Notes: generated by a model not told the origin, from the letters alone. 57,378 nucleotides of DNA from an uncultured Gammaproteobacteria bacterium (GCA_964504365.1 CAZDDW010000001.1:1-57378), one strand, 5' to 3'; positions 1,280 through 9,580 are shown, counted from the stretch's first letter. Numbers and translations are program-made.

Positions 1280-1930
1280 TTTCCTGGTGACAGACCAGGT
1301 GGATCTGCTCGATCTATATGCTAGAGCAAAAGCGCCACCAAGGTTGTCTATGATCTGAGGTGGTGGTGGATACGCGGCAATTGCCTGCTGCGTTGAAGCT
1401 GGAATAGTAGAGGCCGGCAAGTGCCCGGACCCAAAAGAGTGTTATCAAGGGTCCTCACGAGGGATTCAGTTCTCAAAAGAGAGCAGCACTCACCATATCT
1501 GCTTGGCAAGCAGGTCTGTGGGCATTCACGGATGAGGACCAATGAGCAAGTGAAACTAGCAGTGCTTTGTAGAGAATCCCCGCCACCGGACTTTAGTGCC
1601 GGGGTTGCTGCGTTTAACGGCGCGTAGTGAAGGGGTACAACCCAACGTCCAGCATTGTGTTGGACAAAACTGTCAGCCCTCGCCTTGCCAGATTCAGTTC
1701 TGGAAGAAAAGGAGGGTGAGGAGGGTGGCATCTCCTTGATAAAAAACATGGCCAAAAAAAGCTCGTTCAAGGCATGTTAGGGAATCCTGTTTTGCGGGAT
1801 CAGCCACAGGAAGGTATAAAGGCCGGACAAGGAGTACGGCCTGGAGCCTAGGCAATGGGTATATTGTGTAGGATATGAACGGGGCATGTTCGCTTCCGTA
1901 ATATTCTTCCCCTGTTGCGACAAATCCTGG
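1280..1930 (+). ncRNA. large structured non-coding RNA, copy 1 (family unidentified)
   Basis: No credible CDS; 72/75 nt identical block with 9262-9336; compensatory changes against copies 2 and 3; ends approximate. Confidence 0.75.
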
Positions 1931-1973
1931 TGATAGAGAAATCGAATTAGAACCCAACACCCTGGAGGTAATC

Positions 1974-4343
1974 ATGGGTCGCAAGAGCAGACGTCAGATC
2001 GTCTACCTACCGCAGGACAGCGGTAACCCCTTGTCGGCCCGGGATCTGGGTGGCAAGGGTGCGGGACTAGTGGCCATGGTGCGCGAAGGTGTGCCTGTCC
2101 CGCCGGTGTTCACGGTGCGTACCACTGTGGCCCGGGCCTACGCAGAGAACGAACGCCTCCCGGATCGCATCGGGTGGCAGATGAAACGCGGAATCCGGAG
2201 CCTGGAGCGGGCGACCGGACGTTTCTTCGGAAGCGTTCGCAAGCCCCTCCTGGTTTCGGTCCGCAGCGGAGCCCAGGTTTCCATGCCTGGGATGATGGAT
2301 ACGGTTCTCAACCTCGGCCTGAACCCGGACACAGTCCAGGGTTTGATCAAGCTGACCAATGACGAGCGTTTCGCCTACGACTGCTACCGGCGGTTCCTGG
2401 CGCAGTTCGCCACGGTCGTGCTCGGTATGGAGACCGAGAAGTTCGACAAGGCTTTGGCTGAGGCACTGCAGCGGAATAAGGTTGACGACCAGCGTCAGCT
2501 TTCGGCCGCGTCTCAGCTGGCCATGTGTGGTCACTACCGTTCGCTGATCGAGGAGTACCTCGGCGAGGACATGATCGACGACGCTTACGAACAGTTGGTC
2601 CTGGCCCTGGTCGCGGTCTGCAAGAGCTGGAACAGTGACCGCGCCCAGACTTACCGCCGCGAGCATCAGCTCCCGGACTGGTGGGGCACGGCAGTCAACG
2701 TGCAGACCATGGTCTTCGGCAATGCCGGGGACGATTCCTGTACTGGTGTGGTCTTCAGCCGCAACGTGTCCACGGGCGAGCCCGGGCTCTACGGTGAGTT
2801 CCTGGTCAACGCTCAGGGCGAAGACGTGGTTGACGGCAAGCACAACGCGCTGCCGATTTCGGACATGGCCGACTGGAACGAGCGGCTCTACCAGGAGCTG
2901 CAGCGACAAGTGGCCAAGCAGGAGCGTCGGTTGAACGACGTGGCCGACGTGGAGTTCACCGTGCAGAAAGGTCGGCTCTGGATCCTGCAGTCCCGCACGG
3001 CCAAGCGTACACCGCTGGCTGCGGTGACCATCGCTTACGACATGGTTCAGGAAGGTACCTGGACCAAGACTGAAGCTCTGGCCTCGGTTGGTTCGGAACA
3101 GTTGGAGGCTCTCTCTCGCCCCCGCATTGATCCGGATCATCTGGCCGAGCACGTTGAGGACGGTGTCAAGGTCTATCGTGGTCTGCCAGTTTCCTTCGGG
3201 GGAGTGGCTGGTCGAGTAGTGACCAGTTCGCAGGCTGCAGTCAAAGCAGCCAAGAACAAGACCGAGCCGGTCATTCTGGTTCTTCCGGATACCACACCCA
3301 AGGATCTGGCTGGCATGATCGCGGCTGACGCTATCGTCACCATGACCGGTGGCACCAGTTGTCACGCGGCTGTGGTCGCGCGCGAGCTGAACAAGCCGTG
3401 CGTGGTCGGGGTCAAGGATCTGATGGTCCTGGATCATCAGATCCTGTCCATGGATGGCAGTCTGGGTGTGGTTTTCGGTGTTTCGGTCCAGATGATCGAG
3501 CCGGCCAAGACCAAGGCCACGGCCGTGTTCAAGAGCTGGGTCCATCACGCTGAGCGCAAGCTGCAGCTGGTCAACCCGGTCGCACGGCTGAACTTCGACC
3601 TGGTCACCGGCGACAGTCTGAACGTAAGCACAGCAATAAACGACTTCTACCTCGCAGGTGCCATGGAAGTGGCAGCTCGAGGCACGGCACTTCACCACGC
3701 GGCCGTGAGTCTGAAACAGCGTGTTCACCATCAGGTGGCCGAGCACATCGCCATGTACCTGGTCGTTGCCGTGTCCGGTGAGCTGCGGCACCTCTTCGAC
3801 AAGGGTCTTGACGGATACCGCTCGGTTCAGGAAAAGGCCGAACAGCTGGCCAACAAGTTCGGTGTACATCGTAGTGGCAGCAACCGGCCCGGTGCGCAGA
3901 TGGACGCGGTCAGTCGGCTGAAGGGGTTGTCTCCCCAAGACCATGTCCAGTACCTACAGCTGGCCGTCGAAGTCTTCGATAACCCCGATGTTCACTGGAG
4001 AGGCTCCAACATCGGTGGTCAGAAGTGGGCCCGTATTGCCGAGGCCGCGCTGCACTATCTGACCGGCAAACTGAACGCGACAGCCTTTGCTGACCACGCC
4101 TTCGACCTGAAGCACAACGGCGGCCTGGTCTTCAACAAGCACAGTATGGTCGCGGCTTATCCCAACACCGTTTACCGGCAGCTGGATGCCAAGAAGATGG
4201 CCCGTGGTGTGCACGAGATGATCCGTGCGCTCGAGAACACTGGTCATCGCACCTTCTCGGAGCAGGTGCTGACTGTTAGCCATCGCGGCGAGCGTATGGG
4301 GATCTGGCAGGCTGAGGCCCGCCGATTCGGCATCGCCGCTTGA
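1974..4343 (+). CDS. PPDK-like dikinase (ATP-grasp + phospho-His domain) with non-PPDK C-terminal domain
   Basis: LGGKGAGL, PLLVSVRSGAQVSMPGMMDTVLNLGLN, NAQGEDVV, GGTSCHAAVVARE motifs; SD GGAGGT; C-terminal ~280 aa is not a PEP/pyruvate TIM barrel. Confidence 0.85.
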   Translation: MGRKSRRQIVYLPQDSGNPLSARDLGGKGAGLVAMVREGVPVPPVFTVRTTVARAYAENERLPDRIGWQMKRGIRSLERATGRFFGSVRKPLLVSVRSGAQVSMPGMMDTVLNLGLNPDTVQGLIKLTNDERFAYDCYRRFLAQFATVVLGMETEKFDKALAEALQRNKVDDQRQLSAASQLAMCGHYRSLIEEYLGEDMIDDAYEQLVLALVAVCKSWNSDRAQTYRREHQLPDWWGTAVNVQTMVFGNAGDDSCTGVVFSRNVSTGEPGLYGEFLVNAQGEDVVDGKHNALPISDMADWNERLYQELQRQVAKQERRLNDVADVEFTVQKGRLWILQSRTAKRTPLAAVTIAYDMVQEGTWTKTEALASVGSEQLEALSRPRIDPDHLAEHVEDGVKVYRGLPVSFGGVAGRVVTSSQAAVKAAKNKTEPVILVLPDTTPKDLAGMIAADAIVTMTGGTSCHAAVVARELNKPCVVGVKDLMVLDHQILSMDGSLGVVFGVSVQMIEPAKTKATAVFKSWVHHAERKLQLVNPVARLNFDLVTGDSLNVSTAINDFYLAGAMEVAARGTALHHAAVSLKQRVHHQVAEHIAMYLVVAVSGELRHLFDKGLDGYRSVQEKAEQLANKFGVHRSGSNRPGAQMDAVSRLKGLSPQDHVQYLQLAVEVFDNPDVHWRGSNIGGQKWARIAEAALHYLTGKLNATAFADHAFDLKHNGGLVFNKHSMVAAYPNTVYRQLDAKKMARGVHEMIRALENTGHRTFSEQVLTVSHRGERMGIWQAEARRFGIAA

Positions 4344-4517
4344 ACGATACAACATCAGTACATTCACGGAGGTGAAACACGAGTTCCAGTGGGCGCGACC
4401 GACATCGCGCTCACTGGACTCCTTAAATGAGCTTCCCGGACGTTAGTGTTCCGGGAAGTTGATCGAGGAGAATTGATAAAGCGGCCAAATCGCCGCACGA
4501 TATACGGAGGAAGAACG

Positions 4518-5003
4518 ATGAGAAGCATTCCGCATAGCGAGCGTACGGGTGTCGCGATACAGATCGGTCCACACACGGTTCACGCCGGTGGTGGTAGCTT
4601 CATGCAGCCCGGTGACGTCAACGGTTACGACGTGGTCGTTCCGCTGGCCGGCCGTCTGCCCGACGGTGCCGAGCTGACCGACGACCAGGAGCGCTTCGAG
4701 CTGGAGCTCGAGGACTTCGGTGGTGTACCCAAGGACTGGGAGCAGATTCTGCGCGAGCAGGTCATCCCTCTCCTGGAGCAGGGCAAGAGCCTGCTGGCAT
4801 TCTGTGCCTGGGGGCAGGGGCGGACCGGGACTTTCCTGGCCTCGCTCATGGCCATCCTCGAGCCGAATGTCGACGATCCCGTCCTGGAGCTGCGCGAGCG
4901 GTACACCATGGAGGCGGTCGAGACCCAGACCCAGGCCCGCGCGGTCTTCGCCATCAAGGGTATCAAGGAGTTGCCCGAGGTGCACCAGCGCCTGCGGAAG
5001 TAG
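4518..5003 (+). CDS. protein-tyrosine/dual-specificity phosphatase family protein
   Basis: CX5R loop FCAWGQGRTG, downstream VETQTQ (ETxxQ-type); SD GGAGGA before ATG 4518. Confidence 0.85.
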   Translation: MRSIPHSERTGVAIQIGPHTVHAGGGSFMQPGDVNGYDVVVPLAGRLPDGAELTDDQERFELELEDFGGVPKDWEQILREQVIPLLEQGKSLLAFCAWGQGRTGTFLASLMAILEPNVDDPVLELRERYTMEAVETQTQARAVFAIKGIKELPEVHQRLRK

Positions 5004-8882: not shown

Positions 8883-8889
8883 TATGAAT

Positions 8890-8959
8890 GGAGGTAATTA
8901 AGATGGAACAGTTTGAATGGTGGTAGCCGGACCACGTTAAAAAAGCGGTCGCTTGAGCG
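8890..8959 (+). promoter_or_regulatory. SD-led 7-codon ORF (MEQFEWW, 8903-8926) overlapping an H-type pseudoknot
   Basis: GGAGGT 8890-8895; gtggt/accac stem; loop gccg pairs with cggt 8946-8949; same gcttgagcg tail as copy 1. Confidence 0.6.
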
Positions 8960-9054
8960 AAGTTGATGAGATAATATTGGTAAATAGTTTTTAAAAAAAT
9001 TATTTACTTCTTGTTCTAATAGGACATCAACACAGTTCAAGTCTGGCTTAAGAT

Positions 9055-9580
9055 GCCTGACGGACCAGGTCAGAAAAGGTGCGTTCAGCCTTTCAATAAT
9101 TGGACAAAGCGCCACCAGGGTAGCCTATGGTTTGTGGTGGTGGTTGAAGCGTGGCAATTGTCTGTTGTGTGGAAACCGGAATCGAGTCCGGACAAGTGAC
9201 TGGACATGTCAGAGTGTAATTAGGATCCCCATGAGGGACCCTGTCCTCGTAATGAGGTAAACACTCACCATATCTGCTTGGCAAGCAGGTCCGTGGGCAT
9301 TCACGGATGAGGACCAATGAACAAGTGAAATTAGCAAAGCCTTGTTAAGTCTCATTGAGACGACAGCCTTCCTTTCTAGCAAAAAGTAAGGTGAGGGAAC
9401 GTGACCCAACACGCTCAAGGTAGATAGCTTTGGAATCTTGTTTAGCGGGATTAGCCTCAGGAGGGTATTAGTTCCGAGCGAAAGCACGGACAAAAGCCTA
9501 GGCAGTGGGTATATTGTGATGGTATAGACTGGGTTCATGGAGCCTTTATAATGCTTTTCCCCTGCTGCGACAGATCCTGA
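9055..9580 (+). ncRNA. large structured non-coding RNA, copy 3
   Basis: Colinear with 1280-1930; 72/75 nt identical core; 3' end cccctgctgcgacagatcctga. Confidence 0.75.

What the first reader, a model, noticed from the sequence alone, without database searches (positions are those of the whole stretch)
1280..9580. Three diverged copies of a 530-690 nt highly structured RNA of unknown family
Copies at about 1280-1930, 7120-7810 and 9055-9580 share the same ordered blocks with variable inserts. Copies 1 and 3 are 72/75 identical at 1487-1561 versus 9262-9336. Compensatory changes read directly: ctgct/agcag vs ccgct/agcgg; tccgtg/cacgga vs tccgtt/aacgga; gcaAtggg/ccctgTtgc vs gcaGtggg/ccctgCtgc; acgcggca/tgctgcgt vs gtgcggga/tcctgcgc. 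A closing (t)cagga/tcctg(a) helix ends each copy, and G-U pairs support the + strand. Size and complexity are in the range of OLE, ROOL and GOLLD RNAs, but I cannot assign a family. Several paralogous copies in one island, with no partner ORF inside them, is unusual.
Basis: partly seen in the sequence, partly recalled or inferred. Interest (0 to 1): 0.95.

Follow-up and report, generated by a model that had tools for sequence, protein, structure and literature searches.

The report
New large RNA family beside dikinase genes
The three repeats are real copies of a large, intricately folded RNA that matches no catalogued RNA family, recurs in many uncultured bacteria next to an uncharacterised kinase-phosphatase gene set, and most likely acts as a structured leader controlling those genes.

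Summary
Observation confirmed.

None of the 4227 Rfam 15 families matches them, even at E<=10, and all six reading frames carry stops.

The family extends far beyond this window. Covariance models built only from sequences of other organisms recover the window copies. They find more than 40 further instances in Obscuribacterales (26 of 107 genomes) and, sporadically, in Patescibacteria (3 of 401).

Covariation is strong. All 18 pairs of the central module and all 5 pairs of the closing helix P1 show compensatory changes. A 3-bp pseudoknot (GGC:GCC, AGC:GCU, GAC:GUC) ties the two modules together.

The RNA is tightly linked to a PPDK-like dikinase carrying a novel C-terminal domain (odds ratio 96, p 2e-14), a CX5R phosphatase and a small conserved protein. 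It lies on their strand, usually ending 42-62 nt before a start codon, and often occurs twice per locus.

Best reading (about 0.45): a very large cis-acting 5' leader. Main rival (about 0.3): a stand-alone ornate RNA that partners the dikinase system.

No expression data could be obtained, and the function is untested.

The parts
1283..1929 (+). RNA copy 1 (647 nt), directly upstream of the dikinase gene
   Evidence: Helices checked: 5' hairpin 1283-1299; Z1 1335-1339/1359-1363; Z2 1372-1379/1386-1393; P_a 1469-1474/1479-1484; P_b 1499-1502/1510-1513; P_c 1515-1520/1527-1532; P_d 1784-1787/1797-1800; P1 1807-1811/1925-1929; P2 1821-1825/1837-1841; P3 1852-1859/1911-1918; pseudoknot GGC 1505-1507 with GCC 1803-1805. 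R1 hit 1467-1541; R3 hit 1832-1933.
1469..1540 (+). Copy 1, central module A (P_a, linker, P_b with loop UUGGCAA, P_c, tail UGAGGACC)
   Evidence: Third-best hit in the window of model R1, which was built from 14 foreign homologues. Pairing checked.
1784..1929 (+). Copy 1, 3' module B (P_d, AGCC pseudoknot target, P1, P2, UAG, P3 with a 51-nt insert, GACAA, P1')
   Evidence: R3 full-length hit 1832-1933, E 0.028 in 573 kb. Pairing checked.
7125..7810 (+). RNA copy 2 (686 nt), upstream of the junction hairpin and the 260-aa ORF
   Evidence: Helices checked: 5' hairpin 7125-7141; Z1 7150-7155/7173-7178; Z2 7188-7195/7202-7209; P_a 7240-7245/7250-7255; P_b 7268-7271/7279-7282; P_c 7284-7289/7296-7301; P1 7593-7598/7805-7810; P3 7638-7645/7791-7798 (7 of 8, one C.A); pseudoknot 7274-7276 with 7590-7592. 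P2 7607-7615/7620-7628 was re-read from the sequence and not re-run, because the check used coordinates one base off and paired only 3 of 9. R1 hit 7236-7310, best hit of the window, E 0.0019. R3 did not report this copy, whose P3 holds a 145-nt insert.
7240..7309 (+). Copy 2, central module A
   Evidence: R1 23.4 bits; R2 43.3 bits.
9056..9580 (+). RNA copy 3 (525 nt), upstream of the junction hairpin and small membrane-protein ORFs
   Evidence: Helices checked: 5' hairpin 9056-9069; Z1 9112-9116/9136-9140; Z2 9149-9156/9163-9170; P_a 9245-9248/9254-9257; P_b 9274-9277/9285-9288; P_c 9290-9295/9302-9307; P_d 9434-9452; P1 9457-9462/9575-9580; P2 9473-9476/9487-9490; P3 9502-9509/9561-9568; pseudoknot 9280-9282 with 9454-9456. 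R1 hit 9236-9316; R3 hit 9477-9582.
9245..9315 (+). Copy 3, central module A
   Evidence: R1 18.7 bits, second-best hit of the window; R2 38 bits.
9434..9580 (+). Copy 3, 3' module B
   Evidence: R3 full-length hit. Pairing checked.
1974..4343 (+). PPDK-like dikinase (789 aa): PPDK_N and PEP-utilizers domains plus a novel roughly 260-aa C-terminal domain. It is the gene with which the RNA family co-occurs.
   Evidence: Pfam, NCBIfam, PHROG kinase, about 60 full-length relatives, co-occurrence statistics.
4518..5003 (+). CX5R cysteine phosphatase (161 aa), a conserved neighbour of the dikinase
   Evidence: Weak Pfam DSP-PTPase hits; SsoPTP/DUSP23 by sequence; tblastn hits in 36 loci.
5765..6376 (+). 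203-aa protein whose N-terminal roughly 75-aa domain (GTEGTxxY..RVRVEP..GWKQPG..RFS) recurs in the islands; 5038-5487 is also related
   Evidence: tblastn gave 28 hits; alignment A9. In L059 the second RNA copy lies directly upstream of such a gene.

Best explanation
SHOWN. The three elements are intact paralogous members of an undescribed family of large structured RNAs (525-686 nt here).

The conserved architecture, 5' to 3', is:
- helix Z1 enclosing a small hairpin, then GGUGG, then hairpin Z2;
- a variable region;
- hairpin P_a, an A-rich linker, and hairpin P_b with loop YUGGCRA;
- hairpin P_c and a GAAGYC-like tail;
- a second variable region;
- hairpin P_d and an AGCC segment;
- a three-way junction of closing helix P1, optional P2 and P3 (which holds a conserved tandem U.G/G.U), joined by UAG and GACAA.

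The GGC of the P_b loop pairs with the GCC just 5' of P1. This pseudoknot locks the central and 3' modules together.

The family is encoded on the same strand as, and within, horizontally spread islands. These islands carry a PPDK-derived dikinase with a novel acceptor domain, a CX5R phosphatase and a small conserved protein.

INFERRED (most likely mechanism, about 0.45). The RNA is the long 5' leader of island mRNAs and acts in cis. Folding of the P1/pseudoknot core, stabilised by a ligand or by an island protein, would decide whether the ribosome-binding site can be used. That site lies about 30-45 nt downstream and is predicted to be partly paired in local folds. In three homologues a terminator hairpin stands between the RNA and the gene and could be the controlled element instead. 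Repeating the leader before several island genes would give them common control.
For: Real, non-coding and of unknown family:
- No Rfam hit at gathering score or at E<=10 in the window, in 15 homologous loci, or in L059.
- Stop codons in all frames.

Family membership shown independently of the window:
- R1 (14 foreign sequences) gives the three copies as the top 3 hits of the 57-kb window.
- R3 (15 foreign sequences) finds c1 and c3 full length.

Covariation:
- Module A: 92.8% of cells paired, 18 of 18 pairs with double changes, 0 of 500 shuffles as high, slid controls 27-43%.
- P1: 5 of 5 pairs with double changes. P3: 99.7% paired.
- Pseudoknot: 33 of 35 instances pair; A:U versus G:C association p 0.003, including compensatory switches between the two copies of one locus (L059, L062).

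Linkage to the dikinase:
- RNA in 26 of 107 and the dikinase domain in 33 of 107 Obscuribacterales genomes, with an overlap of 24; odds ratio 96, p 2e-14.
- All hits in six large genomes lie in dikinase loci.
- Both other Patescibacteria hits have the dikinase directly downstream.

Leader-like position:
- 42 of 43 R1 hits and 47 of 48 R3 hits lie on the gene strand.
- In about 22 of 40 instances the GAC of the junction lies 42-62 nt before a start codon with a Shine-Dalgarno sequence.
- Terminator-like hairpins stand between the RNA and the gene in L046, L060 and L075.
- The RNA precedes different island genes: the dikinase, the small-domain protein, and a conserved 54-78-aa protein.
Against:
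- At 450-690 nt the conserved RNA is several times larger than known riboswitch aptamers.
- A specific P1-3'-strand:SD alternative pairing appears in MFE folds of only about 9 of 21 leaders, so the expression platform is not demonstrated.
- Window copies 2 and 3 are followed by the same junction element that follows ORF stop codons. They therefore behave like independent cassettes rather than classical leaders.
- In Obscuribacterales the P_a loop is a conserved palindrome-containing CCCGGUG. Such a loop could mediate RNA-RNA kissing, as in oligomeric ornate RNAs.
- Covariation counts were made on model-fitted alignments and are not corrected for phylogeny.
Confidence: 0.45

Rival explanations
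1. Stand-alone, stable 'ornate' non-coding RNA that works in trans with the island proteins. It could be a scaffold or RNP component, a self-assembling RNA, or the substrate or allosteric partner of the dikinase-phosphatase pair. Its position before genes would then reflect only co-transcription or processing from a polycistronic RNA.
For: - Size and number of helices lie in the range of OLE, ROOL and GOLLD.
- A pseudoknot-locked compact core.
- A conserved CCGG-containing loop on P_a in Obscuribacterales members.
- Strict linkage to proteins of unknown substrate.
- Window copies 2 and 3 are flanked like cassettes by a terminator-like module upstream and the junction element downstream.
- Terminator hairpins after the RNA in L046, L060 and L075.
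Against: - In most instances nothing terminator-like separates the RNA from the start codon 42-62 nt away.
- The palindromic loop is absent from the three window copies.
- The small conserved island protein has no recognisable RNA-binding fold: mean pLDDT 70, no Foldseek match below E 0.1.
Confidence: 0.3
2. Self-processing RNA (a ribozyme, or a processing signal for a host RNase) that cuts long island transcripts into cassettes and leaves a structured, stabilising 5' end on each downstream mRNA.
For: - Repeated before several genes of one co-oriented cluster.
- Invariant unpaired junction nucleotides (UAG, GACAA) and a conserved tandem G.U in P3, as expected of an active site or recognition site.
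Against: No resemblance to any self-cleaving ribozyme, group I or II intron or RNase P model in Rfam at E<=10. No cleavage data.
Confidence: 0.08
3. Diverged member of a known family (ROOL, GOLLD, OLE, HEARO, raiA, an intron, a cobalamin-type riboswitch) that the models miss.
For: Only a loose likeness of AUAGCC-GGAGAC to the B12-box region, recalled from memory.
Against: cmscan with permissive filters at E<=10 returns only chance microRNA-type hits, and those fall on the junction hairpins rather than on the RNA. This holds for the window, for 15 homologous loci at gathering score and for L059.
Confidence: 0.03
4. Decaying repeats, mobile-element ends or unrecognised protein-coding sequence, with no RNA function.
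For: The copies lie in a compositionally foreign island (50-63% GC against about 44%) that is rich in other repeats.
Against: - Compensatory changes in every helix across more than 40 instances from distant phyla.
- Sequence similarity is too low for nhmmer to detect while the structure is kept.
- Stops in all frames, and overlapping ORFs that are out of frame with each other.
Confidence: 0.02

Closest known systems
OLE, ROOL and GOLLD large 'ornate' bacterial RNAs
   Same: Several hundred nucleotides long, with many covarying helices and pseudoknots. No coding capacity. ROOL and GOLLD are found in mobile or phage-like DNA. Function is not deducible from sequence. Obscuribacterales members carry a palindrome-containing loop that could support self-association.
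   Different: No match to their Rfam models at E<=10. This RNA sits on the gene strand, ending 42-62 nt before start codons. It is tied to one specific gene set and is often duplicated within one operon. Oligomerisation is untested, and the palindromic loop is missing from the window copies.
Riboswitches and other large cis-regulatory leaders (T-box, cobalamin riboswitch, glmS ribozyme, ribosomal-protein leaders)
   Same: A conserved structured domain in the 5' region of the genes it accompanies. A closing helix P1 next to the expression region. A pseudoknot that docks a hairpin loop beside P1. Some representatives are followed by a terminator hairpin, others by an SD that is paired in local folds.
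   Different: The conserved part is 2-4 times longer than known aptamers. No ligand or binding protein is known. The same leader is repeated before different genes of one island. A mutually exclusive expression platform could not be demonstrated.
Glucan, water dikinase (PPDK-type) plus SEX4/laforin-type dual-specificity phosphatase of starch metabolism (from established knowledge; not tested here)
   Same: Pairing of a phosphohistidine dikinase with a CX5R phosphatase that together phosphorylate and dephosphorylate a polymer. It is an analogy for what the island proteins might do.
   Different: The acceptor domain here is unrelated and of unknown specificity: no PDB relative by sequence. Nothing shows that the RNA is the substrate.

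Membership tests
Any Rfam 15 family (including OLE, ROOL, GOLLD, HEARO, raiA, group I and II introns, RNase P, tmRNA, riboswitch classes) | Match to the family covariance model at or near its gathering score | tested here: not met
   The window at gathering score yields only RNase P (28081-28492) and 3 tRNAs elsewhere. At E<=10 over 900-9900 there is no hit inside the three copies. 15 homologous loci give 0 hits. L059 1500-2900 at E<=10 gives only two chance hits.
The new dikinase-associated RNA family (defined here) | Central module: P_a, linker, P_b (loop YUGGCRA), P_c, purine-rich tail | tested here: met
   A model built from 14 foreign sequences ranks 7236-7310, 9236-9316 and 1467-1541 as hits 1-3 of the window. 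The iterated model R2 gives 43.3 and 38 bits for c2 and c3.
The new dikinase-associated RNA family (defined here) | 3' module: P1 closing a junction with UAG, P3 (tandem U.G/G.U) and GACAA | tested here: met
   R3 hits 1832-1933 and 9477-9582. c2 was read directly: P1 6 of 6 and P3 7 of 8. R3 itself missed c2, whose P3 insert is 145 nt.
The new dikinase-associated RNA family (defined here) | Pseudoknot between the P_b loop triplet and the triplet 5' of P1 | tested here: met
   GGC:GCC in all three copies. 33 of 35 family instances pair, with GGC:GCC, AGC:GCU and GAC:GUC variants.
The new dikinase-associated RNA family (defined here) | Same strand as, and within a few kb of, the PPDK-like dikinase with the novel C-terminal domain | tested here: met
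   c1 ends 45 nt before the dikinase start codon; c2 and c3 lie 2.8 and 4.7 kb downstream of the gene on the same strand. Family-wide linkage.
Riboswitch / cis-regulatory leader (kind of mechanism) | Conserved structured domain located in the 5' untranslated region of the controlled gene | tested here: inconclusive
   Position and strand fit, but no transcript start or end data could be obtained, and consensus promoter and terminator scans were at chance level.
Riboswitch / cis-regulatory leader (kind of mechanism) | Expression platform with a structure mutually exclusive with the sensor helix | tested here: inconclusive
   The SD is largely paired in local MFE folds of 21 leaders, but with the P1 3' strand in only about 9. 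Terminator hairpins occur in 3 loci.
Riboswitch / cis-regulatory leader (kind of mechanism) | Specific binding of a ligand or protein | not testable with these tools
   Needs in-line probing, binding assays or genetics.
Homo-oligomeric ornate RNA (works like ROOL/GOLLD/OLE) | Self-complementary loops or interfaces that drive assembly | tested here: not met
   A CCGG-containing P_a loop is conserved in Obscuribacterales members, but the window copies have AAAA, AAGT and GTAAT loops there. Assembly itself is not testable here.

The most novel reading that the evidence does not exclude
The RNA is not merely a leader. It is the dedicated partner of the island's enzymes. The PPDK-derived dikinase would use its novel C-terminal domain to bind or phosphorylate this RNA, or a ligand held by it, and the CX5R phosphatase would reverse the step. 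This would be a mobile RNA-protein phosphotransfer module analogous to the glucan dikinase/SEX4 cycle, spread horizontally between Melainabacteria and CPR bacteria.
Probability: 0.12. Interest if true: 0.95.

Novelty: categorically new. Interest (0 to 1): 0.82.

Why it matters
Large bacterial RNAs with elaborate conserved folds are rare, and each has opened new biology (OLE, ROOL, GOLLD, ribozymes, riboswitches).

This one has strong comparative support. It has a pseudoknot-locked core. It lives in poorly known lineages: about a quarter of sampled Obscuribacterales genomes, and sporadic CPR islands that look horizontally acquired. It is bound to a widespread dikinase-phosphatase system whose substrate is unknown.

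Two outcomes are possible:
- As a leader, it would be by far the largest bacterial cis-regulator of its type, and its ligand would point to the function of the enzyme system.
- As a free RNA or an enzyme partner, it would be a new RNA-protein machine.

The models and coordinates given here make the question directly testable, by reporter assays, probing, cryo-EM and metatranscriptomes of activated sludge or groundwater.

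Tried and rejected
- BLAST of copy 3 against 400 genomes of the phylum found only the window itself.
- Exact-pattern scans based on window-specific motifs found nothing in genome contigs or viral contigs. A shorter pattern gave 7 viral hits, all chance.
- nhmmer profiles of the window copies found nothing in the homologous leaders, because sequence is too diverged and only structure is kept.
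- R1 on 24 IMG/VR loci with phage PPDK-like kinases (L006-L029) gave no significant hit. The phage kinases, which match only the first roughly 510 residues, are therefore not accompanied by this RNA.
- A GC-rich P3 pattern scanned over viral and metagenome contigs returned 20 and more than 120 stretches. Of the 100 loci fetched from these, only 1 (L119) also had module A, so the rest are chance hits and no abundance estimate is possible.
- Consensus promoter and terminator scans were at chance level.
- A single-sequence MFE z-score is unimpressive for copy 3 (-0.5) but strong for copy 2 (-7.4). It was not used as evidence.
- An anti-SD switch was tested by local folding and was inconclusive.
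- The small conserved island protein was folded (mean pLDDT 70) and searched against the PDB, with no significant fold match, so no RNA-binding clue came from it.
- PADLOC, Pfam and NCBIfam gave nothing for the neighbours beyond the dikinase and weak phosphatase hits.
- Four literature searches found no description of this RNA or island.
- An alternative closing helix in the window copies (GGGAT(C/T) with GATCC) was considered. It was set aside because homologues support (T)CAGGA/TCCTG(A) as P1.

Full report
**1. The observation**

The window is the first 57 kb of a contig of a 1.07-Mb, 19-contig genome. Its phylum relatives are all about 1 Mb. One same-phylum genome holds a contig titled Candidatus Saccharibacteria, so the host is a Patescibacteria (CPR) bacterium.

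Bases 1-13,000 have 50-63% GC, against about 44% for the rest, which carries RNase P RNA, tRNAs and housekeeping genes. This region is a compositionally foreign island at a contig end.

Within it, three + strand stretches share the same ordered blocks with variable inserts: about 1283-1929, 7125-7810 and 9056-9580. The genome has no other copy.

- 72 of 75 identities between 1487-1561 and 9262-9336.
- All six frames of each copy contain stops. The long minus-strand ORFs overlapping copies 1 and 3 read the shared block in different frames.

**2. Not a known family**

- cmscan of the whole window at gathering thresholds finds only RNase P and three tRNAs elsewhere.
- With permissive filters and E<=10 over 900-9900, nothing falls inside the copies. 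The weak microRNA-like hits lie on the island's long junction hairpins.
- The same holds for 15 homologous loci and for a typical homologue at E<=10.
- Four literature searches found no description.

**3. Finding relatives**

DNA-level searches failed. The gene downstream of copy 1 gave the lead.

That gene encodes a 789-aa protein with PPDK nucleotide-binding and phosphohistidine domains but a novel C-terminal domain. No PDB relative was found for that domain by sequence. About 60 full-length relatives at about 45% identity exist in MAGs. Contigs encoding them show roughly 1-kb non-coding gaps upstream. The 3' ends of those gaps read CUAGGC-GGYGG-loop-CCUGCCGC-GACAA followed by a strand complementary to a purine run upstream, which is the same arrangement as the end of the window copies.

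A scan of species-representative genomes with the C-terminal domain gave 54 loci, mostly Obscuribacterales/Melainabacteria, Saccharibacteria and other Patescibacteria. Seventeen loci (fifteen of these 54, plus L038 and L039 fetched earlier) carry that motif 41-157 nt before the dikinase start codon, within 0.9-1.3 kb without credible ORFs.

**4. Architecture**

Reading the homologues side by side gives these elements, 5' to 3':
- Z1, a helix enclosing a small hairpin, followed by GRUGGUGG. It was recognisable in the window copies and in a subset of homologues.
- Hairpin Z2 with a 6-nt loop.
- A variable region.
- Hairpin P_a. Its loop is CCCGGUG in most Obscuribacterales members and a tetraloop-like sequence in the window.
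- An A-rich linker.
- Hairpin P_b with a 7-nt loop YUGGCRA.
- One nucleotide, then hairpin P_c and a GAAGYC-like tail.
- A second variable region.
- Hairpin P_d.
- AUAGCC.
- The 5' strand of P1, an optional P2, UAG, P3, GACAA, and the 3' strand of P1.

The stretch from P_a to the tail is 71-81 nt in all 20 instances first compared, including the window copies at 76-77 nt.

**5. Independent statistical tests**

- Model R1 was built only from 14 foreign sequences. Searched without filters over both strands of the window, it returns the three copies as its three best hits at exactly the expected place (E 0.0019, 0.019, 1.3).
- Model R3 of the 3' junction was built from 15 foreign sequences. It finds copies 1 and 3 full length despite inserts of 51 and 28 nt. 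Copy 2, with a 145-nt insert in P3, was verified by direct reading.
- Over all fetched loci, R1 gives 43 hits and R3 gives 48. All but one weak hit each lie on the strand of the dikinase.

Covariation results:
- Module A: 92.8% of 733 cells form standard pairs, against 27-43% when partners are slid. All 18 pairs show changes on both sides. No shuffle of 500 reaches the observed values.
- P1: all 5 pairs show double changes, drawn from at least a dozen different helix sequences.
- P3: 99.7% paired, with a nearly invariant tandem U.G/G.U.
- The frequent G-U pairs would be A.C on the other strand, which supports transcription of the + strand.

Caveat: these alignments are fitted to the models, and the counts are not corrected for phylogeny.

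**6. A pseudoknot joins the modules**

The central triplet of the P_b loop is complementary to the triplet immediately 5' of P1 in 33 of 35 instances.
- It is GGC:GCC in most, including all three window copies.
- It is AGC:GCU in seven.
- It is GAC:GUC in one.
- The two copies within one locus (L059, L062) differ by exactly this double change.
- The A:U versus G:C association has p 0.003.

The central and 3' modules are therefore parts of one fold, with the pseudoknot stacked next to P1.

**7. Distribution and linkage**

- Model R2 (iterated from the 43 hits) finds the RNA in 3 of 401 sampled genomes of the window's phylum. In both of the other positive genomes the dikinase lies directly downstream.
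- In the order of L059 (Obscuribacterales by record titles), 26 of 107 genomes have 1-4 copies and 33 of 107 have the dikinase C-terminal domain. Twenty-four genomes have both. This gives an odds ratio of 96 and p 2e-14.
- One of the two RNA-only genomes has its hit at a contig edge.
- In six large genomes examined in detail, all hits lie in dikinase loci.
- Two copies per locus occur in L045, L059, L060, L062 and L071, so the multiplicity seen in the window is a family trait.
- Phage PPDK-like kinases (IMG/VR and GenBank phages) match only the first roughly 510 residues and are not accompanied by the RNA.
- Conserved protein neighbours are a CX5R phosphatase (36 loci; motif CAWGQGR in the window) and a roughly 75-aa domain, GTEGTxxY..RVRVEP..GWKQPG..RFS (28 hits). 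That domain is present in the window proteins at 5038-5487 and 5765-6376, and its fold matched nothing significantly.
I treat that as a lead that agrees with this analysis, not as evidence.

**8. How it probably works**

What is shown is position. The RNA is always co-oriented with island genes. In about 22 of 40 instances its GACAA junction lies 42-62 nt before a start codon that has a good Shine-Dalgarno sequence. That gene is most often the dikinase. It can also be a small-domain protein (L059 second copy), a conserved 54-78-aa protein (L049, L068, L073, L079) or others.

In three loci a terminator-like hairpin stands between the RNA and the gene, and the one in L075 has a full U-tract. P1 is a purine-rich, SD-like strand paired with a CU-rich strand. 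In local folds the true SD is largely paired, but with the P1 3' strand in only about 9 of 21 cases.

I therefore infer, at about 0.45, that the RNA is a very large cis-acting leader. Its P1/pseudoknot core, stabilised by a ligand or an island protein, would control translation or termination of island genes.

The main rival, at about 0.3, is a stable free RNA that partners the enzymes. In its favour:
- its size;
- the CCGG-containing loop in Obscuribacterales;
- the cassette-like flanks of window copies 2 and 3, each followed by the CAWAGTTCTTTGGAAGCG...CCACCAGAG junction that otherwise follows ORF stop codons.

A processing or ribozyme role (0.08), a diverged known family (0.03) and non-functional repeats (0.02) are less likely.

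**9. Novelty and verdict**

The RNA matches none of the 4227 Rfam 15 families and no paper I could find. It has strong comparative support and a defined genetic partner of unknown function. I rate it as a new class, with the caveat that its general kind (structured leader or ornate RNA) is familiar and that its function is inferred, not shown.

A further caveat: the island lies at a contig end of a MAG, so its physical linkage to this host rests on one assembly. An independent assembly (L037, 99% identical dikinase) covers only the island.

Noticed in passing
window 687-812, 5548-5673, 6468-6593, 8764-8889; also 7845-7940 and 9610-9705: Long CCACCAGAG...CCCTGGTGG hairpins occur just before Shine-Dalgarno sequences. 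They are preceded by a CAWAGTTCTTTGGAAGCG junction that contains the stop codon of the upstream ORF. The same junction follows RNA copies 2 and 3. A similar TTTGGAAG + hairpin + SD element precedes the dikinase in other CPR loci (L055, L065, L088).
   Followed up: partly
window 995-1023, 6722-6750, 6770-6798, 8918-8945: A small hairpin followed by an A-rich tail (GGTGGnAnTCnGAnCCCACTnAAAAnAAA) recurs upstream of each large RNA. It looks preQ1-I-like by eye, but no Rfam hit appears at E<=10.
   Followed up: no
window 6836-6872: Two overlapping alternative hairpins (AGAGGG..CCCTCT and CCCTCTG..CAGAGGG) are followed by TTTTTT. This looks like an attenuator and lies about 250 nt upstream of RNA copy 2.
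   Followed up: no
L039, L041, L046-L048, L059, L062, L070, L071, L075 (P_a hairpin): The loop of hairpin P_a is a nearly invariant CCCGGUG (palindromic CCGG core) in Obscuribacterales members, and ACCGGUU or GCCGGUC in L061 and L091. It could be a kissing-loop site for RNA dimerisation. It is absent from the window copies.
   Followed up: partly
L059 1541-2420, L062 1519-2430, L071 1550-2420: About 900 nt of further non-coding sequence lies upstream of the RNA core, with conserved patches (e.g. GGUUAUCGGUCGCCUGC, AAUAUCGAAAACUUAAGC). It may be a second RNA or an extension of this one.
   Followed up: no
L049 6894-7073, L068 3049-3213, L073 5605-5841, L079 5890-6090: A conserved small protein ending ..SAEESAFLSSLSAEEFNALIEERSEI.RGM is encoded directly downstream of the RNA, in the sub-clade where the RNA follows rather than precedes the dikinase.
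   Followed up: no
window 1974-5003: The pairing of a phosphohistidine dikinase with a CX5R dual-specificity-type phosphatase mirrors the glucan, water dikinase/SEX4 pair of starch metabolism. The acceptor domain has no PDB relative by sequence.
   Followed up: partly
window 28081-28492: Bacterial type A RNase P RNA (159.9 bits) with large insertions, in the 44% GC host part.
   Followed up: no
window 45609-45684: tRNA-Ile with a genomically encoded UAU anticodon.
   Followed up: no
window 14538-14900: A 23S rRNA-intervening-sequence protein (four-helix bundle, PF05635, E 3e-29) is encoded just beyond the island.
   Followed up: no
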